Virus record (IMG/VR): IMGVR_UViG_3300030330_001508
Span: 1-41,358 of that record
Direction: 5' to 3' (one strand)
Origin: a virus
Taxonomy: Duplodnaviria; Caudoviricetes
DNA length: 41,358 nucleotides
Positions within the stretch are counted from its first letter, which is position 1, and each line of letters starts with the position of its first letter. Below the pieces are notes generated by a model. The model was not told the origin of the DNA. It saw only the letters and a program-made list of their open reading frames with translations, and ran no database searches. A program made the translations under genes and the position numbers. Shown piece after piece: positions 15,805 to 30,824 of this stretch.

Positions 15805-16226
15805 AGAACTTCAAACTCATATACTGAACTTGAAGACCTTAATATATTTAGGTCTAAGTAACCTACAAACTTTACAATTTTTTCCTTATCATCAAACTCT
15901 GTTTGCTTTGGCATCTCTTTATACTGCCACTTGTAATCGTATTTCTCTTTATTTAAACTTGTAATATTATATATTACTATACGTTTACCCGAAGCTACTA
16001 CGTATAAAAATTTTCTATCAGTAATGTGTGCATACCAACTATTGTAAGAAAACTTATCAAACTCTATTAACTGCTTATCGTACCAATCTTTTCTGTGCTT
16101 TACTTCTACAATGCAATAATCATTGAATGCATCAAACCTTTCGTATTCAAAATTACTTAACATTAATGTTGATTTAGGAAACCTTTGATTATATCTTTCT
16201 ATTATTTTCTTTTCTATTTCTTTCAT
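15801..16226 (-). CDS. PD-(D/E)XK-family nuclease-like protein
   Basis: FDA....IVEVKHR motif; SD GAGGA. Confidence 0.65.
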   Translation of the reverse strand: MKEIEKKIIERYNQRFPKSTLMLSNFEYERFDAFNDYCIVEVKHRKDWYDKQLIEFDKFSYNSWYAHITDRKFLYVVASGKRIVIYNITSLNKEKYDYKWQYKEMPKQTEFDDKEKIVKFVGYLDLNILRSSSSVYEFEVL

Positions 16227-16238
16227 TGTTTGTTCCTC

Positions 16239-16670
16239 TTAAAATGGTGCTTTTAAAAAATTTTTATAAAAATTAATTTTTTTTACTTGATTATTTTTTG
16301 GCTTATTAACTGCAAAAGCAACTGTATATTTTTCAGTTTTTCTATTATTTTTATACCAAATTATTTTTGTTTTTTTATTTATATGTAATGGTGTAGCAAT
16401 CCAATCTGCTATTGTTGGTAATATTCTTACTTGAATTGAAGCTTGATTTGTAAATGCTGTATGGTACTTTACTTGTATACTTGTGTACTTACCATATTTT
16501 TCTACTAATAAATCCACACCAAAGTCGTCTACTACGGGTGTATAAACACGTAAGTTTTTTCGTAAAAGATAATCAGATACAATCTCTTGCCCAATATAAC
16601 CTTTACGTGTTGTGCTTATTTTAATAGGGTTCAAGCAGTTCTTTCTACTTACTTTGCGCCAACCAAGCAA
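16239..16670 (-). CDS. PD-(D/E)XK endonuclease (group-I-intron-associated/PDDEXK_5-like)
   Basis: KGYIGQEIV..YL...VYTPVVDDFGVDLLV......IQVK; true start may be downstream. Confidence 0.75.
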   Translation of the reverse strand: MLGWRKVSRKNCLNPIKISTTRKGYIGQEIVSDYLLRKNLRVYTPVVDDFGVDLLVEKYGKYTSIQVKYHTAFTNQASIQVRILPTIADWIATPLHINKKTKIIWYKNNRKTEKYTVAFAVNKPKNNQVKKINFYKNFLKAPF

Positions 16671-16952
16671 TTAGCTTTCATTTTCTTGAACCCTACATTT
16701 AGGGCATATCTCTCTTATTTTTCCTATTGTAGGAAAGTCATCATAATAATTATAACTAGTAACAGTTTTTTTATTTGAAGTTTTTTTGCAAGACTCCCAA
16801 ACTTTTTTACAAAAATTACATAATTTTAATCTATTATCAGTACGTTTTGAATCCCAAGTATGTACCTTCTTTATATACTTATCTCTTATAGTAGGGTCTT
16901 GCTTAACTCTATCTTGAAAATTTTTAATTTTAGGTGGATGATTTACGTTCAT
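16671..16952 (-). CDS. Small zinc-finger protein
   Basis: CNFC...CPKC; SD AAGGA. Confidence 0.65.
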   Translation of the reverse strand: MNVNHPPKIKNFQDRVKQDPTIRDKYIKKVHTWDSKRTDNRLKLCNFCKKVWESCKKTSNKKTVTSYNYYDDFPTIGKIREICPKCRVQENES

Positions 16953-16968
16953 ATTAATCCTTAATTAC

Positions 16969-17037
16969 GTAGCCTACAGTCCATACGGAGGTAAGACACA
17001 TACGGTATGTAGAAGAGGAGTGATGACTGTAGGCTAC
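16969..17037 (-). ncRNA. Intergenic stem-loop A: perfect 13-bp stem, 43-nt interior with anti-SD segments
   Basis: GTAGCCTACAGTC (16969-81) / GACTGTAGGCTAC (17025-37); interior on the transcript includes ACUCCUCUUCU and UUACCUCCGUAUG. Confidence 0.6.
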
Positions 17038-17048
17038 TTATCTTTTAT

Positions 17049-17276
17049 TTAAAATGGTACATCATCAGATTGTTGTTTCTGAGACTCTTCTTGTTTCTCT
17101 GAAACTTTTACTGATAAGTATTTCATACCTTTAGCTGATGTGTTTGACCAAGCTGATAACCTATAGTCTTTACCTTCTACGTTTACGACTCCCGTCATAT
17201 TAGGTCTGTTATCACCTTCTTCTTTGGTGTTGTTTGGAAACAATGCACCCGAGTTTGTATTATCATAGTCTGACAT
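17049..17276 (-). CDS. Small ssDNA-binding protein (DUF736-like)
   Basis: NSGALFPN..RPNMTG.VNVEG.DYRLSAW..KYLS and acidic tail DDVPF. Confidence 0.75.
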   Translation of the reverse strand: MSDYDNTNSGALFPNNTKEEGDNRPNMTGVVNVEGKDYRLSAWSNTSAKGMKYLSVKVSEKQEESQKQQSDDVPF

Positions 17277-17277
17277 A

Positions 17278-17523
17278 CTAACTTCCTTTCTGTTTTACGT
17301 TCGTTTCTGGAGCAATACGCTTAGTATTTTTAAGCCAATATTTTTTTACATCCTCATCATTACTAGAGTGTTTTGTAAAATAACAAAGTGAGCTCCCTTC
17401 ATTGTTGCTTATTAAAGTACCCTCTAAACCACCTTCTGTGACAAAGGACATACCTTCTTCTAAGTTTTTTAAAAATTTATAACCTTTAATTGGTTTACGT
17501 TTTTGTTTTGTATTTATCTTAAT
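17278..17523 (-). CDS. Hypothetical protein, start uncertain (ATT at 17523 or ATG at 17451)
   Basis: 86-codon open frame 17535-17278 filling the intergenic gap (KPIKGYKFLKNLEEGMSFVTEGGLEGTLIS...); missing from the ORF track. Confidence 0.6.
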   Translation of the reverse strand: MKINTKQKRKPIKGYKFLKNLEEGMSFVTEGGLEGTLISNNEGSSLCYFTKHSSNDEDVKKYWLKNTKRIAPETNVKQKGS

Positions 17524-17528
17524 ATCAT

Positions 17529-17816
17529 TTACCTCCTACCTCCAATTTCTACTTTTTGACTACTAACTAATTTAAATATTAATTTTTCTTCATTATTGTC
17601 TGTTTTAATAATTTTGTCTACATATATTTCTTCAAGAGCCATAGGGTAATCTTCAAACCAAAGTGGTGTTATGTGTTCACATCCTTTATTAGTCTTATCT
17701 GCTACACAAGCATTTACTATTGATGGCTTTACTAATTTACCATCTAGAGTTCCACCAACATATACAACTTTATCTTTTACAGTATATCTTTTTGTTTTTT
17801 TATTTTTTTCTAACAT
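17529..17816 (-). CDS. Hypothetical protein
   Basis: 95 aa, VVYVGGTLDG; in operon. Confidence 0.6.
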   Translation of the reverse strand: MLEKNKKTKRYTVKDKVVYVGGTLDGKLVKPSIVNACVADKTNKGCEHITPLWFEDYPMALEEIYVDKIIKTDNNEEKLIFKLVSSQKVEIGGRR

Positions 17817-17829
17817 ACCTTATCCTAAT

Positions 17830-18081
17830 TTAATACTTATATTCTATATCGTCACCCGAATTTTTTATTTTATTTTTTGTGTATTCGTGTATCTGAAGTA
17901 TCCTAGCGGCTACGTAAACACAACAATCAAGTATTTCCTCTAGTGCTTCTACGTTCCAATTTCTACCATCGTGTATATCCATTGCACCACCATATTGTTT
18001 TTTGCCTTTTTTTAGTCTTTCTTTTATGAGATTAATAATGTCTTCATTATAATTTTTCTTATCATCTACTATTAGTTTCAT
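17830..18081 (-). CDS. All-alpha NTP pyrophosphohydrolase (MazG-like) protein
   Basis: ERLKKGKKQYG...EALEEILDCCVY (EExxD helix). Confidence 0.55.
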   Translation of the reverse strand: MKLIVDDKKNYNEDIINLIKERLKKGKKQYGGAMDIHDGRNWNVEALEEILDCCVYVAARILQIHEYTKNKIKNSGDDIEYKY

Positions 18082-18443
18082 TCTTCCTCCGTTACTATTT
18101 TTAACATAAGTAAAAATCTATCTAGTGGTAGTGAAATCATAGGGGGCATACGTTCACCTCTGAACACAACACCTATCTCTTCTTTTTCGGGCATTAAATA
18201 TGTAGGTATTCTTTTCCTACGCTTACAACCATAGAACTCACCTTGTATTTCTACATCGCCTTTCTCGTGCATTGCACCACCTCTATCTCTGTTGTGCGCT
18301 TCTAACCCTAATTCTCTACACTTATTAACTAATAGACGTTGCAGTTCTGCACCACGTTGTCTATTTCTTCTACCTCGCCTTACGTTATTCGCAGACTTTG
18401 CACGTTTGTTCTTTAACGCTTTCTTCTGTATAAATGGGGGCAT
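18078..18443 (-). CDS. Holliday junction resolvase (Hjc-like PD-(D/E)XK)
   Basis: RNRQRGAELQR...GDV......GCKRRK...LDRFL pattern. Confidence 0.7.
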   Translation of the reverse strand: MPPFIQKKALKNKRAKSANNVRRGRRNRQRGAELQRLLVNKCRELGLEAHNRDRGGAMHEKGDVEIQGEFYGCKRRKRIPTYLMPEKEEIGVVFRGERMPPMISLPLDRFLLMLKIVTEEE

Positions 18444-18651
18444 CGTATGTAACCTCTCTTTTCTTTAGTTTATTTTCTTCAATTTTTTTAACATCACTTT
18501 TTATCTTTTTAAAATCCTCAAATAAATCATTGACTCTATCTTTTATTACGGGAACAGAATCAGATTGTATTTTAAACCTACGTAAAGATTCTACTATAAT
18601 ATTGAGTTCAGATTTAGTTATCTTAACTTTAAAAGAAAATTCTTTAGTCAT
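18385..18651 (-). CDS. Hypothetical protein
   Basis: 88 aa; overlaps dnaB stop; SD GAGGAG. Confidence 0.6.
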   Translation of the reverse strand: MTKEFSFKVKITKSELNIIVESLRRFKIQSDSVPVIKDRVNDLFEDFKKIKSDVKKIEENKLKKREVTYDAPIYTEESVKEQTCKVCE

Positions 18652-19996
18652 TACTCTTCTCCTCTACTTCATATTTTTCTGCTAGTGCAATAGAGTGGTG
18701 GTCATATATCTTACATCTTTCCCCTACTACACCTAGTTCTACGTTACCAGTTTTACCATATCTATTCTTACCTATGATTGCTTCTATTCCAAACTCTCCA
18801 TTCTTAGAGCCGTCTTGTAAGTATCTATATTCATAGAACATAAACAATATTGTTTCAGAGTCTTGTTCTATAGAACCACTCTCACGTAGGTCAGATGGTA
18901 TAGGTCTTTTGTTTGTACGCTCTTCACACTTTCTATTTAACTGAGATACGATAATAGCACACATATCATAAGACTTGCATAGCAGTTTATATTCTTTCAT
19001 AATACTATCTATACGTAATCTAGGGTCTTCAATATGTCTAAGCGTTGCAAGTCCTATGTAATCATCTACTACTACGTCTGGTTTTACTTGTCTTATTGTA
19101 GATACTGTAGATTCAAAGTCATTACTTCTATCTTTCATTATAAGATTCTTGCCATACTTTTTTAATAGTTTCTTTTTAGTATTGGTAATATCTTCCTTAT
19201 CTTTTTCTGTATATGTACCCGTAACAACTCTAGAATAATCTACTTGGTCTGAGTCTGCAACAATTAACTTAGCTAACATAGATTCATTCTTCATCTCTCT
19301 ATTGAACACAAGAACTTTGTAACCATTAGATAAAAGATTATGTACTATGTTAATAGCCATCGTACTTTTGAAATGACCCGGACGTCCGGCAATAGTAGTT
19401 ATTTCGCCACGTCTCATACCGCCTATGAGATTATCTAATCCCGAAAAACCAAAGCGTATAGTATTATCTTTATTATACATATCTTTTATAGCTTTGTCAA
19501 GCGCACTACGTAAATGAAACTTATCATCTCCGTGTATACTTAATACGTTGCTAATCTTTTTATGTACATTAGTTAATGCATCAACTGTTTTAAGATTATC
19601 TTTTCCTATACTTGTAGATAGCTGCGTAGAAAGGTTTTGAATATTACGTAACTCATACTTCTCATATATATTCTTTGCATATTGAACTGCATTAGATGCT
19701 ACAGACATATTCTTAAAGTAACCCGTAAGTTTAAATGCGGGAGTTTCTCCACTTATTGTAGTATTAGTATCGTTATTAAGTTGAGATGTAACTGTAGTTA
19801 TGTCTACCTTTACTCCGTTACGATGCATAGATATAATCTTATCCCATACTATCTGATTGAACTTAGCATAGAACATATCTGTCTTAATAATAGAATTAAC
19901 TTTGTCAATCTGCTTACTATCTGTCATTACAGAAGCTATCAACGCTTCTTCTGATTCTATACTTCTATGATTGTTTAACTTCATCTGCCCACTCAC
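18644..19996 (-). CDS. dnaB: Replicative DNA helicase DnaB-like
   Basis: N-terminal SIESEEALI domain; AGRPGHFKST Walker A, VVVDDY, SQLNR, SDLRESGSIEQD, KNRYG. Confidence 0.95.
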   Translation of the reverse strand: MSGQMKLNNHRSIESEEALIASVMTDSKQIDKVNSIIKTDMFYAKFNQIVWDKIISMHRNGVKVDITTVTSQLNNDTNTTISGETPAFKLTGYFKNMSVASNAVQYAKNIYEKYELRNIQNLSTQLSTSIGKDNLKTVDALTNVHKKISNVLSIHGDDKFHLRSALDKAIKDMYNKDNTIRFGFSGLDNLIGGMRRGEITTIAGRPGHFKSTMAINIVHNLLSNGYKVLVFNREMKNESMLAKLIVADSDQVDYSRVVTGTYTEKDKEDITNTKKKLLKKYGKNLIMKDRSNDFESTVSTIRQVKPDVVVDDYIGLATLRHIEDPRLRIDSIMKEYKLLCKSYDMCAIIVSQLNRKCEERTNKRPIPSDLRESGSIEQDSETILFMFYEYRYLQDGSKNGEFGIEAIIGKNRYGKTGNVELGVVGERCKIYDHHSIALAEKYEVEEKSND

Positions 19997-20477
19997 TATG
20001 TATCATTGCAACTTTAGACGCTAACCTACCATAGTTAGATTTGTAATCATCATCACTAACTGTAATTAATACTTTCTTACCTACAACATTCTCTTTTGTA
20101 AGTTCGGGTAGTCTGCGCATAATAACACCATCTACTTCTACTTGCTCAAGTTCTATTAAAAGTATATCAAGTATGTTCTTATATATAATGTTACCACGAC
20201 TACTTTTATTACGTGCTTGTGATGGCTCACTTTTAAATCTCCATATTCCTTTATCACTTATTGTAGCACCTTTATTTTTACCCTTTGCTATTTGGTATGT
20301 GGGTTTATATAAATCTGCATTAGTGCCATACCTAGTAGTAACGTTAGACTTATTTAAATCTATTACTGTGGCTGGATATGTACCATCATCAATAGTTACG
20401 TTTTGTTCTTCGTGGTAATAGGCATCCGTATTGGATGCCCCATTACCTAGTATTTCATCAAGGAAATTATCACTCAC
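19965..20477 (-). CDS. Putative ssDNA-binding / OB-fold protein (DUF669-like)
   Basis: IDDGTYPATV...VVGKKVLITV; lies between SSAP and helicase. Confidence 0.55.
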   Translation of the reverse strand: MSDNFLDEILGNGASNTDAYYHEEQNVTIDDGTYPATVIDLNKSNVTTRYGTNADLYKPTYQIAKGKNKGATISDKGIWRFKSEPSQARNKSSRGNIIYKNILDILLIELEQVEVDGVIMRRLPELTKENVVGKKVLITVSDDDYKSNYGRLASKVAMIHSEWADEVKQS

Positions 20478-21150
20478 TACTTACCTCACTTCTGCTATCT
20501 ATGTAATCTGTTATCTTATGTAAAGAACTATCTACATTTTCCTTAGTTATCTTATCTGTCTTCAAAGCGTGTTCAACCTTCTTATAAAAATCATCGTCCT
20601 TGCTTATTGTTTTCTCCATCATATTAAGTACAGATTCTTTTTCTTTATCTGTGAGTGGTGTTACTTGTTTTGTAAGCGCACCGTTTAACTTTGCTTTATT
20701 TTCTTTATACTTATCTGATATTTGATTAACGTATTTGTTATCATCAAACATACCCATAAATACATCAGCATTAAAACCAAGTTTACTTAGTCCTTTTGTA
20801 AGGGCATCAGTAGCTACCTTCTTAAAGAAGTCATCATCTATTCTACCATTACTACTATACTTTATAGATGAGTGCAAAGGTACTTCACCTTCTTCTGCTA
20901 CATCATCTTGCAAGAACCATAACGTAGCTTGATAAACTACGAGTCCACAATCTTTCCATCTTTCTATTCTTTCTTCTCTTACTCCCCATCCTTGACCAAA
21001 AGCACCAAACATTTCTGTTGCTTTCATTACTTGAGATTGCGCACCAATCGCAGTAAAACCACCACGTTGATTTACTTTCTTTGTATACTTCGGGTCTGTC
21101 TCACATACAGATTCCCAAAGAACCATATTGTTGTTTTTCTTTTTTGCCAT
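20470..21150 (-). CDS. Single-strand annealing protein (Rad52/Sak-like recombinase)
   Basis: TDPKYTK..GGFTAI....KATEMFG.FGQGWG...KKVATDALTKGLSKLGFNADVFMG; adjacent to exonuclease. Confidence 0.75.
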   Translation of the reverse strand: MAKKKNNNMVLWESVCETDPKYTKKVNQRGGFTAIGAQSQVMKATEMFGAFGQGWGVREERIERWKDCGLVVYQATLWFLQDDVAEEGEVPLHSSIKYSSNGRIDDDFFKKVATDALTKGLSKLGFNADVFMGMFDDNKYVNQISDKYKENKAKLNGALTKQVTPLTDKEKESVLNMMEKTISKDDDFYKKVEHALKTDKITKENVDSSLHKITDYIDSRSEVSSE

Positions 21151-21179
21151 ATAAACGTTCCTTTCTTATATGATTGTTG

Positions 21180-21276
21180 AGTTAGAGAGCCTCCTACTAT
21201 CCACTATAAACGTACTCACCCTTATCTTAAGATATACGAATTATAATAGCTTCATACTTCGGTCAGCTCTCTAACT
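21180..21276 (-). ncRNA. Intergenic stem-loop B: 11-bp closing stem with inner hairpin
   Basis: AGTTAGAGAGC / GCTCTCTAACT; inner CGAAGUAUGA/UUAUAAUUCG contains a G-U pair on the minus strand. Confidence 0.55.
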
Positions 21277-21283
21277 ACGTTAT

Positions 21284-22057
21284 TTAAAAATTACCTTTAA
21301 TACCTCCACCACATACGTCAAAATATTGACAATATTTTACGTTGCATTCCCACTCTTCAGCGGGTGTTACACCTAAGTTTAGTACGGGCGGTACTCCACT
21401 TTCTTTGGCTTCATTAACTACTTTGTTTGCAGTAATCCAATACTGTTCTGCCTCATCTACTACGTTCAAATCTAAGCTGACTTCTCTCATCCTAGAATTA
21501 TCTTTGTTATAAAATACTAAAACAAGTCCATTAAGTTTTTTGTATTTACGTTTGTACCATAGTCCATACGTACCAAGTTGTAACTTGTAGTTTCTAGATA
21601 TAGCATCGGGTTTTGCATAGCGTCCAAACATTGTCTTCCACTTCCAAGCATTACAAGTTTTAATATCGTATAGCACTCCATCTTCTACAAAACCTAAATC
21701 AATAAAACCTCGCATATTTAAATCGTCTATTCGTATTTCATTCTCTATAAATATTGGTATTCCGTTTTGTTTAGCGTAATCAGATACTGCTTCTTGTATA
21801 TCTGTATGTACAATGTCGCCTAGTCTAAACAATCTGTATGTATTTATATCGTGAGATTGCTTCTCATCGGGTTGAACTACTGAGCCGTAGTAATGTTTTC
21901 GTAAGCATAAGCCACTTACAGATGAATGAAACCAAGACTCTTTACCAACGTATCGAGTCTTAACTTTTACATCATTCTTACCTTGTATGTAGTTGTCGTA
22001 TATTTCTTGTACTGATTTATACTGATAATTATTCTTCTTCGGCATCATTGTCCGCAT
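21284..22057 (-). CDS. Cas4-like PD-(D/E)XK exonuclease with probable Fe-S cluster
   Basis: S....CLRKHYY, GDIVH, GFID, YDIKT, QLGTY, C-terminal WEC....CQYFDVC. Confidence 0.85.
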   Translation of the reverse strand: MRTMMPKKNNYQYKSVQEIYDNYIQGKNDVKVKTRYVGKESWFHSSVSGLCLRKHYYGSVVQPDEKQSHDINTYRLFRLGDIVHTDIQEAVSDYAKQNGIPIFIENEIRIDDLNMRGFIDLGFVEDGVLYDIKTCNAWKWKTMFGRYAKPDAISRNYKLQLGTYGLWYKRKYKKLNGLVLVFYNKDNSRMREVSLDLNVVDEAEQYWITANKVVNEAKESGVPPVLNLGVTPAEEWECNVKYCQYFDVCGGGIKGNF

Positions 22058-22214
22058 TTTTTAGTAAGTGTCCATAGTTTGAGTTTACGTAATCATCAAT
22101 GATATTATTAAGTTTATCTTGAATTGCTACTCCCTCTATTGCAGAAACTATTTTTAGTTTCTTCCACAAACCTTTCTTCGCTCTAAATGATGTAACGATT
22201 GATTTATTTTTCAT
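22029..22214 (-). CDS. Ribbon-helix-helix (CopG/Arc-like) DNA-binding protein
   Basis: VTSFRA strand then LWKKLKIVSAIEG and IQDKLNNIIDDYV helices; first gene after a promoter. Confidence 0.65.
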   Translation of the reverse strand: MKNKSIVTSFRAKKGLWKKLKIVSAIEGVAIQDKLNNIIDDYVNSNYGHLLKNADNDAEEE

Positions 22215-22245
22215 TTACGTTCCTTAGTTTTTTGGTATGTTAAAT

Positions 22246-22327
22246 CTTATATATATAACGTACGTAGTATTTAATATAATAACGTATTAAATATAATAAT
22301 CATAACATACGTTATTATATATATAAG
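22246..22327. repeat. AT-rich imperfect palindrome with ACGT cores
   Basis: CTTATATATATAA (22246-58) / TTATATATATAAG (22315-27); inner AACGTA/TACGTT. Confidence 0.75.
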
Positions 22328-22335
22328 ATATAGTT

Positions 22336-22371
22336 AAATTAATACTTGAAATAACCTATCACAAGTACTTT
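22336..22371 (-). promoter_or_regulatory. Sigma70-like promoter TTGTGA-17-TAATTT for the recombination/replication block
   Basis: Exact 17-nt spacer; shares AAAGTACTTGT with the early promoter at 29339-29374. Confidence 0.6.
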
Positions 22372-22401
22372 TATTATTTTCTTTACTATAATAATACAAT
22401 A

Positions 22402-22896
22402 CTATATAAGATTAGTGGCTCTACCTTTAGAACCAACCTCATCATCGTAACTATCTAGTATATTTTCGTAGTCTATTTGTACAGAACCGTTATCTTTTAG
22501 TATTGGTGAACTGATTATACCACCTTTATTAATTTCGTGTTTATATTCCCACGTAATTGTAAGGCATTCTTTGGAATCATCTATATTATTATGTATACGT
22601 TCTATCTCTTCAGCAGTAGAATTTTCATACTTTTCTTTAGATACTTTTTTCATATATGATTCACATATTAGTACGTAAGCAACTGCTTCAACATCATTTA
22701 AGTATCTTGCTAATATCTTAAATAATACATCTTTATTTTCATAAGAAAATAGTTCATTAAGTCTAGATATTTTTTCTACTCCATTTTTATCATACGTTAG
22801 TACTGTTGGTGAATGATAGCCACTTCTTAATACTATATTTTGCGCAAATGGAACTGTCTTATGCCGTAAATTATATTCAAATGCTTCTAATTTCAT
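22402..22896 (-). CDS. Hypothetical protein
   Basis: 164 aa; SD AAGGAG. Confidence 0.7.
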   Translation of the reverse strand: MKLEAFEYNLRHKTVPFAQNIVLRSGYHSPTVLTYDKNGVEKISRLNELFSYENKDVLFKILARYLNDVEAVAYVLICESYMKKVSKEKYENSTAEEIERIHNNIDDSKECLTITWEYKHEINKGGIISSPILKDNGSVQIDYENILDSYDDEVGSKGRATNLI

Positions 22897-22914
22897 TGGT
22901 TGTTTCTCCTTTAG

Positions 22915-23625
22915 TTATGCTCTTGCTATGTCTGGAAAAATATCTTTCATATCATCATTATTACGTGCTTCATCTAACAATTTTTTCTGTTCTGTTATGC
23001 TATCAGATATTTTATATCCCGTAATTTGAGGTGCTTCAATCTTTATAGATTCTTCTTTTTCATTAACTTTCTTTTTTATCTGCTCTTGTTTTACTTGCAA
23101 ATGTAACATAGCTACAGTTCTTGCAAACTCATCTATATCTTTTAGATTGAACTCTTTGTACGATGATTTAAGTACTTCAAACATACTAGGTCTACGTCTT
23201 ATATAATCAGTTACTGCATCTAAATAATCACTTGGGTCTGCCTCACTTTCCATACTTGCACATAGTATGTTTTCAATATCTAACTGCATATTATTTAAGT
23301 TTGATATTGAATCTTTAAAAGAATGTCCTTCCCCAATTCTAAACTTTAACGTAGAGTTAATCTTATTTCTAGCATTATCTTTTCTGTACTTTAAAACATT
23401 TTCTTTGAATGTTTTATTTCTATCAAAGAAATAATCTACGTCATCTACATTATTTAAGTAGTAACCATTCTCACAACAACAAGCACCACATACTGCATTA
23501 CTTCCTATCATAACACCACCCATTGTATCTTCTCCAAGATTACAAAAGTCGCAACACACTACGTCTCCCATTTCACTTGCTATATCGATAACTTCAAAGT
23601 CATCGAACACGTTTTCTTTTTTCAT
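22915..23625 (-). CDS. Hypothetical protein with N-terminal Cys-rich zinc finger
   Basis: CCDFC...CGACCC; SD AAGGAG. Confidence 0.7.
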   Translation of the reverse strand: MKKENVFDDFEVIDIASEMGDVVCCDFCNLGEDTMGGVMIGSNAVCGACCCENGYYLNNVDDVDYFFDRNKTFKENVLKYRKDNARNKINSTLKFRIGEGHSFKDSISNLNNMQLDIENILCASMESEADPSDYLDAVTDYIRRRPSMFEVLKSSYKEFNLKDIDEFARTVAMLHLQVKQEQIKKKVNEKEESIKIEAPQITGYKISDSITEQKKLLDEARNNDDMKDIFPDIARA

Positions 23626-23639
23626 TACGTTCTCCTTTA

Positions 23640-23789
23640 TTATATTTGAAATTCTCTTTTAGTTACTTCACGTATTAATTCTGCATATTCATTAAGGTCA
23701 GATATTTCTTTTGTCATTTCCCATATGCTATGGTATTTATTGATACGTTCAAGTATCTGTTTATCTGATAATATATTTACATCAAGCAC
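23640..23789 (-). CDS. Small hypothetical protein (49 aa, MLDVNILSDKQILERINKYHSIWEMTKEISDLNEYAELIREVTKREFQI)
   Basis: Read manually; GTG start after GAGG, fills the gap between neighbours. Confidence 0.55.
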   Translation of the reverse strand: MLDVNILSDKQILERINKYHSIWEMTKEISDLNEYAELIREVTKREFQI

Positions 23790-24189
23790 GTTTTAAAACC
23801 TCTGCTCTGTATCTATTACCTAATTGTTTTAATATAATATTATATTCTTGTATTAATTTATCTGCACCAAGTCTTACTTTACGCACACGATTTAAATCTT
23901 TTCTAAACTTATTATTATTCTCTACTTTTTTCTTTACCCAAGGACTCATCTTATCATACGTTTTTTCAAAATCTTTTATAGTATCTAGTAGATTTTCTAC
24001 TGTAGTAGATAAAGATATTACTGCTTGTAAAGCTTCTTTTAAAGTTGGTTCTTTGTCTTTAAATCTATCTTTATTTTCTATTATATATATTACTTCCTCT
24101 ATCTTAGCTTTACATTTTAAAAGATTAACATCTAGTTTTTTTAGATTACGTATTTCACTTTTAAATTCATCTCCAAATATTTTACTCAT
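23782..24189 (-). CDS. Coiled-coil hypothetical protein
   Basis: ATGA overlap with the VWA gene; helical heptads. Confidence 0.7.
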   Translation of the reverse strand: MSKIFGDEFKSEIRNLKKLDVNLLKCKAKIEEVIYIIENKDRFKDKEPTLKEALQAVISLSTTVENLLDTIKDFEKTYDKMSPWVKKKVENNNKFRKDLNRVRKVRLGADKLIQEYNIILKQLGNRYRAEVLKRA

Positions 24190-25328
24190 TTCATTTCCTT
24201 TACTGCTTTTACTATTTCGTTTACATTATTACATTCATAAAGTTTTAGTTTGCCTTGCCATTGCTCACGTAAGTTTGACATCATAGCTTCTTGGTCTTCC
24301 TTACTATAACGTCTGTAAGGATTCTGAAAGAACCAATGTATCTCATTGTATTCGTAAGAAGCACTAATGCTATCTGTAGCATCACAATCGCCAAAGTATA
24401 TTATTGTTCTATTCTCAAAACCTAGCCAATGATATACGTTATCTAACTGCTCATCTGTAAGTGGCACGTATGCACGTTGTGATATAGAATACTTACTATG
24501 TATGTATCCATTAGGTGCATCATACAACTCTACGTGTTCATACTTACAAGCCTCTGTAGAAATCTGACTATATAAATCTGCCATCTTACTACACGAAGGA
24601 CTACTATCAAGTAGTATAATTATCTTTTCTTTATCACGTGAATACTTGCATTGCGTAATTAGTTTTTTAGATACACGTCTAAACATAACCTTCTCTATAT
24701 CCCATTTGTGCCTACCTTCAATTTTATCACCTGTACGTTCCTCTGCAATCTTTGCAAACATTATCGCAAGGTTAGATGACAGTTTACGGTTTTGTAGCGC
24801 AGTAAATGAGAACTGACTTTCTACACGTTGCGTATTTATCTTCCAATTATTGATTTCAATATGACGTTTTGCATACTCTCTATGGTCTTCAAGTCTATGT
24901 TTAGATACGTGTTTCATTGCCCTAGTTTTAGTTGCGCTAGTAGCTACGTTAGTATTACTTGGAATACCAGTATCAGCAAAGCCACGTATTGTAAACTCAT
25001 CATCAGTTAACTCAGCAATGTTAAGTGTTTTACGTTGCAATCTATCTAGTACTTTATCTAGGTCTTCTTGGATAAGTTCATCTTCGTAATTATACGATGC
25101 TGCACGTAACATAGTATCATCTACCTTAGACTCATCAGCTTCAAATACATCTTTAGGTTTTACGTAACTACTTATCGATGAATCGATGGCAGACTTTACG
25201 TCTGCCATCTCATCATTCTGAGCTTCGTTTTTGTTTTGAACAGGAGGTTCTACTTTCTCAGAACGTTCAATTTCTTGAGCATCTCCTATATTCCATATCG
25301 ACCAAGACGGATTTACATTATTGCTCAT
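24186..25328 (-). CDS. VWA (MIDAS) domain protein, MoxR partner
   Basis: IIILLDSSPSC (DxSxS) and IIYFGD; directly downstream of the AAA+ gene. Confidence 0.8.
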   Translation of the reverse strand: MSNNVNPSWSIWNIGDAQEIERSEKVEPPVQNKNEAQNDEMADVKSAIDSSISSYVKPKDVFEADESKVDDTMLRAASYNYEDELIQEDLDKVLDRLQRKTLNIAELTDDEFTIRGFADTGIPSNTNVATSATKTRAMKHVSKHRLEDHREYAKRHIEINNWKINTQRVESQFSFTALQNRKLSSNLAIMFAKIAEERTGDKIEGRHKWDIEKVMFRRVSKKLITQCKYSRDKEKIIILLDSSPSCSKMADLYSQISTEACKYEHVELYDAPNGYIHSKYSISQRAYVPLTDEQLDNVYHWLGFENRTIIYFGDCDATDSISASYEYNEIHWFFQNPYRRYSKEDQEAMMSNLREQWQGKLKLYECNNVNEIVKAVKEMK

Positions 25329-25333
25329 ACGTA

Positions 25334-27433
25334 TTAACTCACTTTCTCTGCCATCTTTTTACGAGTAAACAACATATGTCTGCGCCATTCAATCAAGTCA
25401 TCTACGTTTTCTTTATCCTTTTTAAGCATAGCAACAAACGTTGTATTCTCGTATGTATTAATACAATAAACATCTAACTTAGTATTCGTAGTGTCTCTAA
25501 GCACACGTGTAGATGATTTGTGTTCCCACTTACCACCTTCTGCTTTCGTAGGCATTTTAAGAAATAAACTCTTATCCATATTTACAAACAGAGGTATAGT
25601 CTCACATCCTAACTTTTTCTGTATAAACATTACGTGTAGCGCAAAGTTCTGAGATTCAGTTGGGGTAGGTAGACTCTTTATTAATACGTGATTTTTGTAA
25701 TTAGGTTTACCTTTTAGATGCCAAGAACGTACAACTGCCCATCCCATATCGTACGTTGTCGTACGTTTTGTCTCTTTTATCTTTGCAGTTCTACTTTTGT
25801 ATAACATATTATGGTACGAAAGTTGGTCATTAGGCTTACGTTCACCACTTACAATTACATCAAGTACTTTCTTAGAATTACCAAGAGTTCTAATATTAAT
25901 GTATTTGTCAGTACTAATATGTCCACCCATCAAGTCATACGTTATATTATCTAACCGTACACGTTCTATACCATCGGGATACCAACCAACTTCAACTATG
26001 CTACCACGAAACATTGGTATTGATTTCGTAGGTACAATAAACTCACATCCTTTTTCTTTTGTCCATCTGCCATTATATTCTAGAGTTTTGTTGTGATTAC
26101 GAGTACGTCCACTATCAGTAACTCTAAATATAATCTCATTATTGGTAGCCTTACGTATAAACATATTAGCCTCAGTAATTTCTAAGAAATCAGAAATGTC
26201 AGCTTTACCTGCGTTAGGTTCTACAAATACTAACGTACCATCTGTATTTACTAAGCGTCTAAACTTCTGTTCCTCTTCTACAATTTCACGTAAATCATAA
26301 GACTTAGAACGTTCTATTGTAGAGTTAGTTACTGTATACCAAGATATAAAGTGAGGCTGAGACATATCTTCATCATTATCAATAGCATCTTCGTAAGCAT
26401 TTGTATATACTGCATCATCACGTTTGTATTCTGCGTAGACTTCTTTATCATTGTCATCAATACCAAAGTTAATATCTATGTTAAGTTTCTCCATCATACG
26501 TGGCATAGAACCATAACCATTAGATATAGTTTCAGTTTCTACTTCAGCATCCTTATCAAAGAACGTAACATCTAATGCCTTACTAAACTCTGATTCATTA
26601 CGAAGTTCTCCGTTCTTAATAGCTTCAAGCGCACGTTGTAATTCGTTATGATTTTCTCTGGTCTTCGTAACATTAGTATAGATAAGTTCTTCCCATCTAG
26701 GATTTTTACCATTAGATTTGTAGCGTAGCCAGTCATTGATTACGTCACAAAGTTCTTGTACCGTAGCAGGTTTATCTAAATCACCTAACACAGATGCGTT
26801 GTAAAGATTTATTACTGCGTTGAACATCTGCTCTGCGTCTTTATTACCGCCATACTTACTAGTAAGTATCTGTAGTATTAAACTCGGTGGCATATGTTCT
26901 ACTTCAATAAACTTCATACGTCTGATAAATGGTTCTGAAAATAATCTGTCATCATTACCCGTAAAGAATATGATAAGATTATCTAGATTAGCTTTGTACT
27001 CCTTACCTTTAACGCTGATACGTCCACTTTGTAAGAACTCCAAAAACATACCATCAGCAGAATGTTGCGTTTTATCCCATTCGTCAAGCAACAATACTAC
27101 ACGTTTATCTTTTGATTCCTTTACTGCAAGTAGTAACTCACAGTCTTGTGCCTCAAAACCCGATACTGCATCTTCGTTAGGCACGTAGTTTTGTACGAAG
27201 TCATACCAATCGTAATCCTTGAAGGCTTGTTTTACGTAGATATTACATCCAAGTAACTCAGCTATCTTCTCGGGTAGATATGATTTCCCCGTACCAGCTT
27301 TACCTTTAAGCATTGTAATTGACATAGGTTTTTTGTGCAAAGCGTTCTCTACTACGTCAGCGAACTCCTCTGTACAAAAATATCCTACATCATTCAACTG
27401 CTTATGAAAGCTAGGTTGTTTTGTTTCGGACAT
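25334..27433 (-). CDS. MoxR/AAA_5-type AAA+ ATPase with long C-terminal extension
   Basis: GKAGTGKS Walker A, VVLLLDEWDK Walker B, FTGNDDRLFSEPFIRR sensor-1/arginine finger. Confidence 0.88.
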   Translation of the reverse strand: MSETKQPSFHKQLNDVGYFCTEEFADVVENALHKKPMSITMLKGKAGTGKSYLPEKIAELLGCNIYVKQAFKDYDWYDFVQNYVPNEDAVSGFEAQDCELLLAVKESKDKRVVLLLDEWDKTQHSADGMFLEFLQSGRISVKGKEYKANLDNLIIFFTGNDDRLFSEPFIRRMKFIEVEHMPPSLILQILTSKYGGNKDAEQMFNAVINLYNASVLGDLDKPATVQELCDVINDWLRYKSNGKNPRWEELIYTNVTKTRENHNELQRALEAIKNGELRNESEFSKALDVTFFDKDAEVETETISNGYGSMPRMMEKLNIDINFGIDDNDKEVYAEYKRDDAVYTNAYEDAIDNDEDMSQPHFISWYTVTNSTIERSKSYDLREIVEEEQKFRRLVNTDGTLVFVEPNAGKADISDFLEITEANMFIRKATNNEIIFRVTDSGRTRNHNKTLEYNGRWTKEKGCEFIVPTKSIPMFRGSIVEVGWYPDGIERVRLDNITYDLMGGHISTDKYINIRTLGNSKKVLDVIVSGERKPNDQLSYHNMLYKSRTAKIKETKRTTTYDMGWAVVRSWHLKGKPNYKNHVLIKSLPTPTESQNFALHVMFIQKKLGCETIPLFVNMDKSLFLKMPTKAEGGKWEHKSSTRVLRDTTNTKLDVYCINTYENTTFVAMLKKDKENVDDLIEWRRHMLFTRKKMAEKVS

Positions 27434-27462
27434 TACGTTCCTCCTGTTATGTCTGTATGTAC

Positions 27463-27924
27463 TTATATGTACACACGTTTCTTTGATACTCCATCAATAA
27501 AGAACCATTGCTCACGTTGCGGGTCAAGCCACACGTAGGGAGCATCGGAACTTTCTTTCCATTTAAATTTTGAATAGTACTCACTATCTTTACGTAATAG
27601 ATTAGACCTGTGAGTAGCGTGAAATACTTTGTCGCCAAACCATTCAGGCATACAAATATCTTCTGTAATAATTTCGTAGCCCATAGTGTGACGAAAGCCA
27701 CGTCCCAACCATACTTCTGTATTGATATTGAAGTAGTGCTGTAGTGCAGGTTCGTAGCCTCGCCACATATGTACAATGGGGTGATTGGCGTACCCTTTCT
27801 TTTCTGTACGTTGTAATAGAATGTTTAGTATATGATACGTCTCACTTCGTTGCTTACCTAGACGTTTGTTATCTAATACGTCAAAGCTTTCTTTGAAGTC
27901 AGCGTATGGTAGAAATGTTTGCAT
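27463..27924 (-). CDS. Pyrimidine-dimer DNA glycosylase-like protein (MSMEG_6728/endonuclease V-related)
   Basis: MQTFLPYADF....LDNKRLGKQR.E, HP..MWRGYE, PEW.G, HRSNLLRKD..YY. Confidence 0.85.
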   Translation of the reverse strand: MQTFLPYADFKESFDVLDNKRLGKQRSETYHILNILLQRTEKKGYANHPIVHMWRGYEPALQHYFNINTEVWLGRGFRHTMGYEIITEDICMPEWFGDKVFHATHRSNLLRKDSEYYSKFKWKESSDAPYVWLDPQREQWFFIDGVSKKRVYI

Positions 27925-27943
27925 TAGTTTGCTCTCCTTTTTA

Positions 27944-28061
27944 CGTAAATGCGTAGAGACTTACAACCAAGTACAAGAAGGAAGAAAGACTTGGAATGCT
28001 CTACGCTTACGGAGGTAACAACTGCTACGTTGTAACTAGCGAAGTCCACGCAGCAGTGACC
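27944..28061 (-). ncRNA. Two-hairpin intergenic RNA C carrying a segment antisense to the RBS of gene 28708..29247
   Basis: Stems GCGTAGAG/CTCTACGC with inner CCAAGT/ACTTGG, and ACTGCTACGT/ACGCAGCAGT (G-U on the minus strand); the linker reads CAGUUGUUACCUCCGUAAG on the transcript. Confidence 0.6.
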
Positions 28062-28183
28062 TATATTGATACTCTAATAAATATTAATATGAACCATATA
28101 ATGATAACGTAGAACATCAAATCACTTCCAAGGAAGTCAAATATACGGTCTAGTTTTTCTAGTATGCGGTAGTATAATTTCAT
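28061..28183 (-). CDS. Small membrane peptide (40 aa, MKLYYRILEKLDRIFDFLGSDLMFYVIIIWFILIFIRVSI)
   Basis: Read manually; SD AGGAG, ATGA overlap, C-terminal TM helix. Confidence 0.65.
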   Translation of the reverse strand: MKLYYRILEKLDRIFDFLGSDLMFYVIIIWFILIFIRVSI

Positions 28184-28317
28184 TTGTTCTTACTCCTAGA
28201 CTCACTACGAAAACGTAGTATATCTTGTAATAATAACGTGAATAAACTGCCCATCATCATACATATTGCGATGACAAATATCTCAGTAAATCCACGAAGT
28301 AATTCAACTGTATACAT
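28180..28317 (-). CDS. Small membrane peptide (45 aa, MYTVELLRGFTEIFVIAICMMMGSLFTLLLQDILRFRSESRSKNK)
   Basis: Read manually; SD AAGGAG, one TM helix, basic tail. Confidence 0.7.
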   Translation of the reverse strand: MYTVELLRGFTEIFVIAICMMMGSLFTLLLQDILRFRSESRSKNK

Positions 28318-28416
28318 ATTATTCTCCTTTTGTTACGTTCATTTTAAAAGCTTGTAAGTACGAAGCTTTCTTTGTTAGTAAATTTTTATACGTTTGATTT
28401 GTCCTGATCTACGTAT

Positions 28417-28698
28417 TTATTTTTCCATTTCAAAAAATTCATCTGTAATTAAATCTTGTCTATTATTTTTTATCAATAATTTTAATATAAAATTTTTGTG
28501 CGGGTCTTGGGTCAATTCTGTGCGTTTGCCTCTGCAATAATATTTCTTTTTATTTTCGTCAATTATTGTTTTCGCAGTACGTTTTTTTTGTTTATAAATT
28601 TTGTCCCTTGAAAAAGATTTAGATTTTATTTTTAATAGGGATTTATATTCGTAATATAAGTAAATATGTGAATTAAATTTTTTGATAGAGTTACGCAT
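28417..28698 (-). CDS. Basic hypothetical protein (second early ORF)
   Basis: 93 aa K-rich ORF; no clear SD; start lies within a long-range duplex. Confidence 0.5.
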   Translation of the reverse strand: MRNSIKKFNSHIYLYYEYKSLLKIKSKSFSRDKIYKQKKRTAKTIIDENKKKYYCRGKRTELTQDPHKNFILKLLIKNNRQDLITDEFFEMEK

Positions 28699-28707
28699 TC
28701 GGGTTAT

Positions 28708-29247
28708 TTATATTTCGTTGATTACTTCTGAATCAACGTTTTCTGTTTCGGTTTCAACGACTTCCTTAACCTCGTTGTTTAGGTTTAAACCAAGTTTCAC
28801 CGCTTTTTCAAGTAGTGTTTTTTGATACTCTTTGGCAGTAAAACCTTCCGGCGTACGTGCTGTAAATGTTTCACTAAATTCACGTAGCTTTTGTTTTTTA
28901 TCTAGCCAAAAATATTTTCCATTTATAGAAAATATTTCGTTTTTGTTTTCTCTAACAAACTCCATATGAAGTTCGCTAATACGTTTTTTAAACTCTATCA
29001 TCAAATCAGAATCAGAACCGGTTTTATCCGCTCCGACTTGATATGATGTTATTTGAACGTTATGAGTTTCTAAAACGTCATTAATAGAATCAATTACAAA
29101 TGGTTCTAAAGAATCGTAGTTCAATGCTTTTTTGAATCTATCAAATTGCTTTGACATCATATTCATTTGACTATTTGTTATGATTGCTTTTTTGTCTACG
29201 ACTTTATAGCCTTCGTAGGTTTTGGGCTTGGTTACGTTATTATTCAT
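28708..29247 (-). CDS. First early gene, hypothetical, acidic C-terminus
   Basis: Strong SD GGAGG; first ORF after the early promoter; ends EVKEVVETETENVDSEVINEI. Confidence 0.8.
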   Translation of the reverse strand: MNNNVTKPKTYEGYKVVDKKAIITNSQMNMMSKQFDRFKKALNYDSLEPFVIDSINDVLETHNVQITSYQVGADKTGSDSDLMIEFKKRISELHMEFVRENKNEIFSINGKYFWLDKKQKLREFSETFTARTPEGFTAKEYQKTLLEKAVKLGLNLNNEVKEVVETETENVDSEVINEI

Positions 29248-29338
29248 TTGTTCCTCCGTAAGGATTTGTGAACACGTAACTCTATCGAAATTTTTACGTT
29301 TTTTAAAACTGTTATATATAAGGGCTTCGCCATATCAA

Positions 29339-29374
29339 AAGATAATAATAATAATACTTTAATACAAGTACTTT
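29339..29374 (-). promoter_or_regulatory. Early sigma70-like promoter TTGTAT-17-TATCTT
   Basis: -35 at 29367-62, -10 at 29344-39; AAAGTACTTGT shared with the promoter at 22336-22371. Confidence 0.65.
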
Positions 29375-29421
29375 ATACTACGTATTAAAGATAATTACGT
29401 AATTTGTTGCGCTACTTCGAT

Positions 29422-29463
29422 AGTCTTAATTGCGCCATAAATAGCGCAAAATTAAGACTTTTT
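29422..29463 (+). terminator. Hairpin with T-tail (possible intrinsic terminator for rightward transcription)
   Basis: AGTCTTAAT-TGCGC / GCGCA-AA-ATTAAGACT followed by TTTT. Confidence 0.45.
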
Positions 29464-29535
29464 ACGTACTCATATGTTACTATTAAAATACTATAATACA
29501 CGTATATACAATAAATTAGAGGCACTTTTTATCTG

Positions 29536-29666
29536 ACGTATTGACAGAAAAATTTTACGTAATGGCAGAGAAAATTATCTGCGCTAATCCCTAAAATTAT
29601 TAGTAATGATTCCTAGAAAAACGTAACGTAAAAATTCTAACGTAATTTTTCTAACGTAATTACGTA
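29536..29666. repeat. Iterated ACGTA-core repeats in the divergent non-coding region
   Basis: ACGTATTGACAGAAAAATTTT / ACGTAATGGCAGAGAAAATTA tandem pair, then AACGTAACGTAA, CTAACGTAAT x2, TACGTAA. Confidence 0.7.
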
Positions 29667-29730
29667 AGTCGGGGTGTGGGGGGCATAAAAAAGAGGCGCA
29701 CACATAGCTGGGCTATTTTTTCAAGTTTTG

Positions 29731-29817
29731 GTATATATTATATATATATACTACGTAATAGTATATTAATAGATATTATATATATATATATTATATATAT
29801 ATATTATTAATATATAC
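29731..29817. repeat. (TA)n-rich imperfect palindrome
   Basis: GTATATATTA / TAATATATAC ends around alternating TA tracts. Confidence 0.7.
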
Positions 29818-29899
29818 ACATAAATAAATAAATCAACAAAAAACTTTCGATATAAAACATTTATTTATAATTTATACCATAACTTGATAAAGGAATATT

Positions 29900-30070
29900 A
29901 TGGAAAAACAATTAAAGTCATTTCAAAAAAGATACCTAGAAAGAATAAACCCTAGTTATCTAATGTTTAACAAATCAGAACTACAAACCGAATTATTTAA
30001 AGTTCTTAAATCAAATGAAGAACTTACTTGGTTTATAAAAAAGATAGCTGAAGATACAGAAAGTGTATGA
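29900..30070 (+). CDS. Small hypothetical protein (56 aa, MEKQLKSFQKRYLERINPSYLMFNKSELQTELFKVLKSNEELTWFIKKIAEDTESV)
   Basis: Read manually; SD AAGGA; overlaps the terS start. Confidence 0.65.
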   Translation: MEKQLKSFQKRYLERINPSYLMFNKSELQTELFKVLKSNEELTWFIKKIAEDTESV

Positions 30071-30824
30071 ACGTAAGGTCAAAGGCAAACAAGAGTTTGT
30101 TTTTAAATCTGAAGAAGAGTTTAAAAAATACTTTCCTAATAAAAATCTTGAAAAAAATTGGCGCACCGCACGTAACGGTTCATACACACTTACAGATGAC
30201 GGACAGGTTGTTAGAATTTTAGATAGAAAAAAATTTAATAATAAAACAAATAACTACTACGTGCGAACTTTATTAGGATTACGCAGAGTTAATACAAACG
30301 AAACTCTTTCAGGCAAACCTAGAAAAAATATATATTCTTTTTCATCTGATAAAACTAGCGAACAATCTGTAAGACAAAGAAAAAACCCCACAACTAAAGA
30401 AACACTCTTTGCAAGATACGTTGCAAATGGTGAAGACGTAGTGCAGTCCTACTTAAAAGTATTTAAAACAAATAATGTAGAAGTAGCTAAACAACAATCA
30501 AGAGTATTGCTAAAGCAAGAAAGGATTATAAGTATGATAAGCAAGGAGAACATAGAATCTCTAGACAAAATAGGAATAAATAGAGATTACTTGTTTGAAA
30601 AAACAAAAGAAGTAATAGAAAACCTAGATGGTAGAGATTCTGATAAACTACGTGCGATTGAATTGTTGATGAAAATAAAAGATATGTTTCCAAAAGAAGA
30701 AAAACGTGAAGCTCTTACTGTATTTCAAGGTTTTTCAAGAGAACAACTACAAAAACTAAAAGAAGCAGATGAAATAAAACAAATAGCACACGCAGAAAAC
30801 GTCTTGGAAGAAAGTAATGAGTAG
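30063..30824 (+). CDS. terS: Terminase small subunit with N-terminal extension
   Basis: PTTKETLFARYVANGEDVVQSYLKVF...AKQQSRVLLKQERI HTH and DKLRAIELL oligomerisation helix; upstream of terL. Confidence 0.75.
   Translation: MYERKVKGKQEFVFKSEEEFKKYFPNKNLEKNWRTARNGSYTLTDDGQVVRILDRKKFNNKTNNYYVRTLLGLRRVNTNETLSGKPRKNIYSFSSDKTSEQSVRQRKNPTTKETLFARYVANGEDVVQSYLKVFKTNNVEVAKQQSRVLLKQERIISMISKENIESLDKIGINRDYLFEKTKEVIENLDGRDSDKLRAIELLMKIKDMFPKEEKREALTVFQGFSREQLQKLKEADEIKQIAHAENVLEESNE

What the first reader, a model, noticed from the sequence alone, without database searches (positions are those of the whole stretch)
28006..29262. Phage-encoded anti-RBS RNA: intergenic RNA C is antisense to the RBS and start codon of the first early gene
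Seen: plus-strand 28006-28024 CTTACGGAGG(T)AACAACTG nearly copies the translation-initiation region of gene 28708..29247 as read on the minus strand (29262-29245: CTTACGGAGGAACAAATG). On the early transcript, CAGUUGUUACCUCCGUAAG can therefore form 17 bp with that RBS: 10 perfect, one bulged A, 5 more, one mismatch, 2 more, covering SD and AUG. The CCUCC seed lies in the linker between two hairpins, one of which has a G-U pair only on the transcribed strand. Inference: a built-in timer or sRNA that shuts off gene 1 once RNA polymerase has travelled about 1.2 kb, acting in cis or after processing. This is my best candidate for an undescribed system.
Basis: partly seen in the sequence, partly recalled or inferred. 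Interest (0 to 1): 0.85.

Follow-up and report, generated by a model that had tools for sequence, protein, structure and literature searches.

The report
Phage RNA mirroring first gene's start
An uncultured marine phage and its close relatives keep a roughly 120-base stretch between two early genes whose paired stems are conserved and whose middle is complementary to the ribosome-binding site of the first gene of that block, so it likely acts as an RNA brake on that gene, although the matching bases are predicted to be mostly tucked inside the fold and no transcript has been seen.

Summary
The letters are as reported. RNA 28024-28006 (minus strand) can pair 10+5+2 bases with the gene-1 start region (29262-29245).

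The element (27944-28062) is a conserved structure with no Rfam match: z = -4.9, and 6 of 35 pairs change on both sides across 8 variants.

For antisense: gene 1 is the best partner among all gene starts in 3 of 3 genomes (1/67, 1/54, 1/61). A second intergenic hairpin (16969-17037) carries the same 11-base seed in this genome.

Against:
- The seed is not in an open linker: 4 of the 5 CCUCC bases are predicted paired locally, which alone could explain their constancy.
- After a genome-wide look-elsewhere control, 2 of 32 shuffles do as well.
- One of three sequence types shows no co-change beyond the core.
- The two distant relatives with a true gene-1 homolog lack the match.
- No RNA data were available.

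New here: gene 1 is bracketed by a 17-bp helix, paired in 9 of 9 variants, that buries the gene-2 start.

Verdict: a new structured RNA; antisense brake on gene 1 about 45%; mechanism of the c4/CarZ/icaR kind, not categorically new.

The parts
27944..28062 (-). Conserved structured RNA (RNA1): short closing stem P0, hairpin P1 with an invariant apical hairpin, one free C, and hairpin P2/P3 with an invariant pyrimidine loop
   Evidence: z -4.9; 8 variants, 98.6% of cells paired, 6 of 35 pairs with two-sided change; no Rfam hit
28008..28015 (-). Seed CCUCCGUA, invariant in 8 of 8 variants; complementary to UACGGAGG at the gene-1 start; locally paired except C28012
28059..28062 (-). AGGU overlapping the stop codon of the 40-aa gene; predicted local mask of the CCU of the seed (P0)
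   Evidence: an AGG lies at or within a few bases of the stop in all three types
28021..28057 (-). Hairpin P1; a 43-base extra arm is inserted at 28029/28030 in L204 and in contigs of runs X15, X17 and X18
27944..28011 (-). Hairpin P2/P3; its base pairs the CGUA half of the seed with a local UACG
27973..27985 (-). Invariant unpaired loop UCUUCCUUCUUGU; no conserved phage target found
29245..29262 (-). Gene-1 ribosome-binding site and start codon, the proposed target; folded into a small hairpin (29252-29264) in 9 of 9 variants
28708..29247 (-). Gene 1, 179 aa, first ORF of the leftward block; family confined to unnamed proteins, no fold match
29270..29286 (-). 5' arm of the 17-bp long-range helix that brackets gene 1
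28684..28700 (-). 3' arm of that helix; contains the start codon of gene 2, which has no Shine-Dalgarno motif
28417..28698 (-). Gene 2, 93 aa, likely translationally coupled to gene 1
28061..28183 (-). 40-aa hydrophobic ORF whose stop codon abuts RNA1; a look-alike ORF sits in the same block in distant relatives
27463..27924 (-). Downstream gene, pyrimidine-dimer glycosylase family (PF03013); its Shine-Dalgarno varies among relatives
16969..17037 (-). Second conserved intergenic hairpin (RNA2) behind the SSB gene: 13-bp stem, large pyrimidine-rich loop, same 11-base seed as RNA1 in this genome but CCUCAGUA in two relatives

Best explanation
27944-28062 is a conserved, stem-paired element on the early strand, and its RNA likely works as an antisense brake that pairs with the gene-1 ribosome-binding site and so would turn down genes 1 and 2 once the early block has been transcribed. 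Shown by sequence: the fold with compensatory changes, the strand, the invariant seed, its complement at gene 1, and the 17-bp helix around gene 1. Inferred steps: (1) the element is transcribed with or after gene 1; (2) at rest the seed is masked by two local mimics of the target, AGG in P0 and UACG at the base of P2; (3) a ribosome stopping on the 40-aa gene, or a cut that removes the 5' flank, would open P0; (4) the freed CCUCC would pair with the gene-1 site and invade the weak base of P2, giving 9-15 bp over the Shine-Dalgarno; (5) untranslated gene 1 would let the bracketing helix close over the gene-2 start, silencing gene 2 as well.
For: Gene 1 ranks first among starts for the linker segment in G000 (1/67), G001 (1/54) and G002 (1/61). 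It is the top pair among all gaps x starts in G000 and G001. With GGAGG held fixed, flank shuffles reach the observed energy in 8, 19, 13, 102, 34, 118 and 66 of 2000 for the seven pairs tested. UAC precedes GGAGG in 8 of 9 gene-1 variants while the spacer varies. Different lineages reach long duplexes with different letters: 10+5 bp in the window, 13 bp in L001, and about 13 bp on the 3' side in L030, which lost the UAC. Cognate pairs beat permuted pairs (fraction 0.017-0.027; sequences not independent). Net binding is -4.4 to -8.1 kcal/mol in 6 of 6. CCTCCGTA occurs 3 times in the genome against 0.24 expected from dinucleotide shuffles (0.3-1.1 from Markov models): in RNA1, in RNA2 and at gene 1.
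Against: Four of five CCUCC bases and all of CGUA have local partners, and the whole element is highly conserved, so the seed's constancy needs no target. Look-elsewhere: 2 of 32 shuffled gap sets match or beat it, and in G002 the pair is only 4th. With the three bases before GGAGG also fixed, only the window (39/2000) and L030 (8/2000) stay under 5%; type C gives 954 and 804 of 2000. Type C RNA fits type B starts (-21) better than its own (-18). Spacer changes at gene 1 are also explained by its own hairpin. In L018 and L022, which have true gene-1 homologs, the equivalent gap is no better than shuffles (7/40, 14/40), and the covariance model finds no element there. RNA2 has a mismatch in the seed in both close relatives. 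Three three-way cognate tests are too small to be significant (1 of 3 and 1 of 6 for the two run).
Confidence: 0.45

Rival explanations
1. The element is a local double-hairpin signal on the early transcript (antitermination as for HK022 put or B. subtilis EAR, nuclease processing, or mRNA stabilising), and the match to gene 1 is a by-product of CCU and CGUA being held by local pairs.
For: Two hairpins are separated by one free base in 6 of 6 folds. L018 and L022 have an AGG-CCU-closed hairpin followed at once by a second hairpin at the same place, without a gene-1 match. All 9 distant loci folded have strong hairpins in the gap before the AAA gene. put is a ~65-nt double hairpin of early phage operons (PMC8632103 passages). 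The look-elsewhere result is marginal.
Against: Only 2 terminator-like sites lie on the early strand in 15000-28000, no more than chance (4 found on both strands, 3.9 expected). No clear promoter lies just upstream. It does not explain why gene 1 ranks first in three genomes or why RNA2 repeats the seed.
Confidence: 0.3
2. RNA1 and RNA2 are broad anti-Shine-Dalgarno RNAs aimed at several phage or host messages, or decoys for an RNA-binding protein; gene 1 is one target or an accident.
For: Both RNAs show conserved unpaired pyrimidine tracts. The RNA1 loop is invariant yet has no conserved best phage target: the top hit differs in each of 3 genomes. RNA2 keeps CCUC(C/A)GUAU across three genomes. 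A second start (18081) also carries ACGGAGG.
Against: The host is unknown, so host targets were not testable (no relative in genome contigs). Among phage starts the linker prefers gene 1 by 1.3-2.7 kcal/mol over the next.
Confidence: 0.18
3. The element is a leader that sequesters the Shine-Dalgarno of the downstream glycosylase gene.
For: In the window the linker can pair with the downstream GGAG (longer fragment).
Against: That site varies (AAGGAG, AAGGAA, AGGGAA, and no GG at all in L204) while the seed is invariant. L207 has a different ORF there.
Confidence: 0.04
4. The stretch is a small coding region (the 41-codon GTG ORF 27924-28049) or a DNA-level site, not an RNA element.
For: A similar ORF is open in L001 and L003.
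Against: A 4-base deletion in type C and the 43-base insertion in L204 break the frame while keeping the fold. One-sided changes create G-U pairs on one strand only.
Confidence: 0.03

Closest known systems
c4 antisense RNA of phages P1/P7 (with P4 CI RNA, recalled)
   Same: Phage RNA encoded in the same operon as its target, separate from the target site, pairing near a ribosome-binding site and dependent on its fold (PMC12197685 and PMC8198154 passages).
   Different: No Rfam match to C4 or any other family. c4 lies upstream of its targets and serves lysogeny through the anti-repressor; here the RNA lies 1.1-1.2 kb downstream of its target, the seed is predicted masked, and no integrase or repressor was annotated.
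CarZ / OppZ autoregulatory sRNAs of Vibrio cholerae
   Same: RNA from further down an operon that pairs with the start region of the operon's first gene; translation of the first two ORFs may be coupled (PMC7398697 abstract and passages).
   Different: CarZ is cut by RNase E from the 3' end and needs Hfq. This element is internal, has no terminator of its own in the scan, and processing and chaperone use are untested.
icaR 3'-UTR anti-SD motif of Staphylococcus aureus
   Same: A short C-rich motif downstream on the same RNA pairs with the Shine-Dalgarno, blocks initiation and makes an RNase III substrate (PMC3868564 abstract).
   Different: Here three ORFs lie between motif and target, and the motif sits in a conserved multi-stem fold.
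HK022 put RNA / B. subtilis EAR
   Same: Double hairpin in an early phage operon (PMC8632103 passages); EAR is an RNA-based antiterminator.
   Different: About 120 nt against ~65; not next to a recognisable promoter; few intrinsic terminators downstream; no sequence comparison with put was possible.

Membership tests
C4 antisense RNA (Rfam) | Match to the C4 covariance models | tested here: not met
   No hit at gathering score in the window, L018 or L022; only two chance-level hits (E 2.9 and 4.9) elsewhere in 27000-30200
C4 antisense RNA (Rfam) | Target is an icd/ant-type operon of a temperate phage | tested here: inconclusive
   Gene 1 and gene 2 match no named family; no integrase or repressor among 52 ORFs scanned, but many are unassigned
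C4 antisense RNA (Rfam) | Complementary sequences exposed in loops | tested here: not met
   Only 1 of 5 CCUCC bases predicted open in native context; a prediction, not probing
Operon-derived autoregulatory sRNA (CarZ/OppZ type) | Predicted duplex with the start region of a gene of its own operon | tested here: met
   Rank 1 in three genomes; net binding favourable; marginal after look-elsewhere
Operon-derived autoregulatory sRNA (CarZ/OppZ type) | Released as a stable RNA by nuclease cleavage | not testable with these tools
   No RNA holder listed
Operon-derived autoregulatory sRNA (CarZ/OppZ type) | Repression shown with compensatory mutants; Hfq dependence | not testable with these tools
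   Needs a reporter; host unknown
Operon-derived autoregulatory sRNA (CarZ/OppZ type) | Located at the 3' end of the operon | tested here: not met
   Internal; same-strand genes continue to 15801; no minus-strand terminator at the element
put / EAR antiterminator RNA | Double-hairpin fold in an early operon | tested here: met
put / EAR antiterminator RNA | Downstream terminators read through in cis | tested here: inconclusive
   2 terminator-like sites on the minus strand, chance level; factor-dependent termination not scanned
Classical cis-encoded antisense RNA (sar, OOP) | Transcribed from the strand opposite its target at the same locus | tested here: not met
   Same strand, 1.2 kb away

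The most novel reading that the evidence does not exclude
A translation-gated RNA timer: the seed is stored between two half-mimics of its target, is unmasked by ribosomes terminating on the 40-aa gene, and then closes the gene-1 site. That in turn lets a 17-bp long-range helix lock the gene-2 start, and a second hairpin 12 kb further down the operon delivers the same seed later. This would be a protein-free, two-step shut-off of the first early genes.
Probability: 0.12. Interest if true: 0.8.

Novelty: new variant of a known kind. Interest (0 to 1): 0.5.

Why it matters
How phages without a recognisable repressor or their own polymerase switch off their first genes is poorly known, and small-RNA control of a phage's own early genes is documented mainly for temperate immunity systems. 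A compact RNA with a named target and natural variants would make the question testable with a plain reporter. Even if the antisense role fails, the locus yields an RNA structure absent from Rfam and a deeply conserved helix around gene 1.

Tried and rejected
Expression: no RNA holder listed among 23 runs, so no evidence either way. Eight DNA runs were laid as contigs; one gave nothing.

Host: no relative of the AAA protein or terminase in genome contigs. The best phage records were 23-27% identical.

More homologs: a gapped pattern gave 112 viral loci, of which nhmmer kept 5, all repeating sequences already held. Gene-1 alignments gave 8 viral and 11 metagenome loci, one of the 11 spurious-looking (L213). 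L205, L210, L212 and L009 end before or at the element and were used only for the gene-1 side.

Distant relatives: model R1 hit only the window and L001 among 15 sources. A direct alignment with L018 and L022 was uninformative. Gap-versus-first-gene test in 9 distant loci: 7, 14, 33, 11, 4, 16, 3, 0 and 34 of 40 shuffles as good. The 0 (L056) is a weak -11.4 duplex, and for seven of the nine the first gene is positional, not a shown homolog.

Gene-1 function: no Pfam or PHROG family, no Atlas hit, no Foldseek hit at E<=0.001, best VIA Z 4.2. This shows neither novelty nor absence of a known fold.

Other checks: no tRNA or tmRNA. No conserved target for the RNA1 loop or the apical P1 hairpin. 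Two extra CCTCCGTA sites in G002 and one in G004 were folded and not pursued.

Print: searches listed no paper on this element. In PMC10690425 six supplementary files had no match, but files 1, 2 and 4 were not searched and could hold the motif.

Full report
Setting. The window is a whole virus record of 41,358 bases, estimated 92% complete. Terminase, portal and major head genes lie on the plus strand, and a leftward block from 29247 to 15801 holds a AAA protein, exonucleases, a DnaB-like helicase, a resolvase and an SSB. Runs that hold it are marine or estuarine DNA. No host was found. Calling the leftward block 'early' and 28708-29247 'gene 1' is inference from gene content and position.

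The observation. 27944-28061 folds at z -4.9 on the minus strand and -2.5 on the plus. No Rfam family matches.

The RNA structure is real. I recovered 8 distinct variants (window included) that fall into three types: A (window, L204), B (L001, L206, L207, L030) and C (L002, L003). On a 35-pair structure, 98.6% of cells pair and 6 pairs change on both sides; slid controls pair 27-38%. The tool warns that relatedness inflates the shuffle control, so these are about three independent lineages. Contigs of three further runs show another two-sided change in P1. A 43-base arm is inserted at one point of P1 in L204 and three runs without disturbing the stems. That insertion and a 4-base deletion in type C argue against coding.

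The seed is not exposed. With the native flank, CCU pairs with an AGG at the stop of the upstream 40-aa ORF, CGUA pairs with UACG at the base of P2, and one C is free, in 6 of 6 variants folded. The two local partners are the two halves of the proposed target. This cuts both ways: it explains the seed's constancy with no target, and it is also what a strand-exchange switch would look like. Opening costs 4.4-8.4 kcal/mol on the RNA and 3.4-5.7 on the target hairpin, leaving -4.4 to -8.1 net.

Is gene 1 special? Evidence for:
- It is first among 49 curated starts in the window, and first of 67, 54 and 61 automatically called starts in G000, G001 and G002. These genomes share ancestry.
- With GGAGG fixed, 8 to 118 of 2000 flank shuffles reach the observed energy across seven pairs.
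- UAC precedes GGAGG in 8 of 9 gene-1 variants; the exception, L030, has a long duplex on the other side.

Evidence against:
- 11 of 5510 overlapping windows elsewhere in the genome pair as well or better.
- Across all 14 gaps and 49 starts the pair is the best, but 2 of 32 shuffled sets match it. It is first in G001 and fourth in G002.
- Beyond the 8-base core only the window and L030 stay under 5%, and type C shows nothing. Type C RNA prefers type B starts.
- The gene-1 site forms its own hairpin in 9 of 9 variants, with spacer changes matched inside that hairpin, which accounts for spacer variation locally.
- L018 and L022 carry gene-1 homologs at about 30% identity and hairpin pairs at the same place, but no significant match to their gene-1 starts, and the model does not find RNA1 there.

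A second RNA. CCTCCGTA occurs three times in the genome: RNA1, the gene-1 site, and a 69-base hairpin behind the SSB gene. That hairpin folds at z -4.5, keeps a rewritten 13-bp stem and pyrimidine-rich loop in G001 and G002, and gives the second-best gap-start pair in the window, again with gene 1. In both relatives the motif reads CCUCAGUA, a mismatch to gene 1; there gene 1 is second in G001 and outside the top five in G002. It supports the idea that the motif matters, less so that gene 1 is its only target.

A helix around gene 1. 29270-29286 and 28684-28700 form 17 pairs in 9 of 9 close variants, with two two-sided and two wobble changes. The helix is kept with wholly different letters in L018 and L022 (z about -6) and is absent in 7 of 7 farther loci, several of which show a terminator-like hairpin with a T run there. 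The 3' arm begins 6-7 bases after the gene-1 stop and holds the gene-2 start, which lacks a Shine-Dalgarno; in L205 stop and start overlap. Translational coupling is the likely reading, and an RNase III stem is the alternative; both are inferred. This feature is better supported than the antisense pairing itself.

Mechanism and odds. I put 45% on an antisense brake on gene 1, 30% on a local double-hairpin signal with an incidental match, 18% on a broad anti-Shine-Dalgarno or decoy role, and under 5% each on control of the downstream gene (its site varies and is lost in L204) or on a coding or DNA role.

Comparison. It would work like c4 of P1/P7 (review passages), CarZ (abstract and passages) or the icaR 3' UTR (abstract), but is a member of none: no Rfam match, not at the operon's 3' end, seed predicted masked. 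The double hairpin also recalls put (review passages); that put's hairpins are one base apart, that P4 CI is a processed antisense RNA, and that CCUCC is the 16S anti-Shine-Dalgarno core are recalled, not from a call. Seven literature searches listed nothing on this element, and three supplements of PMC10690425 could not be searched. Earlier notes of this scan report similar anti-RBS candidates in other phages; they are unchecked and may reflect a shared bias of readers as much as a real class, so I did not count them as support.

Verdict. A new, conserved phage RNA with a plausible but unproven target; new variant of a known kind; interest 0.5.

Noticed in passing
window 29270-29286 with 28684-28700 (-): Long-range helix bracketing gene 1 and burying the SD-less gene-2 start; paired in 9 of 9 close variants and rewritten but kept in L018 and L022. 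Worth a follow-up of its own.
   Followed up: yes
window 16969-17037 (-): Second conserved hairpin with a large pyrimidine-rich loop behind the SSB gene; analogous hairpins with CU-rich loops also follow SSB in G003.
   Followed up: partly
window 29422-29459: Conserved hairpin upstream of gene 1 with changes on both arms in relatives; role unknown (leader, promoter or origin).
   Followed up: no
window 29590-29830: Repeated TTACGT-type motifs, a C-run and a long AT-dinucleotide tract between the divergent blocks, conserved in relatives; candidate origin or packaging region.
   Followed up: no
window 28351-28371 (-); L001 5100-5117: Near-palindrome between gene 2 and the small ORFs, more perfect in relatives; operator or processing hairpin.
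   Followed up: no
whole window: GATC almost absent (2 against 258 expected, both strands); CCWGG, GGWCC and CAGTG/CACTG also avoided, pointing to host restriction sites.
   Followed up: no
L018 1775-2208, L022 5440-5618, L083, L045, L056, L067, L070, L075, L029 before the AAA gene: Distant relatives all have multi-hairpin gaps here; an AAGAUUU-like motif follows hairpins in several, and L045, L056 and L075 share the last hairpin before the start.
   Followed up: partly
L022 6683-6741, 5467-5475; L018 1962-1970: Repeated TGACAAGAA motif (6 copies in L022, three in tandem), possibly a promoter or protein-binding box.
   Followed up: no
window 28061-28317 (-): Two small hydrophobic ORFs (40 and 45 aa); the 45-aa one is missing in L204, L205, L030 and three runs, while a look-alike of the 40-aa one recurs across the family.
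   Followed up: partly
window 17279-17527 (-): Unlisted ORF-like stretch upstream of SSB, conserved in G001-G003.
   Followed up: no
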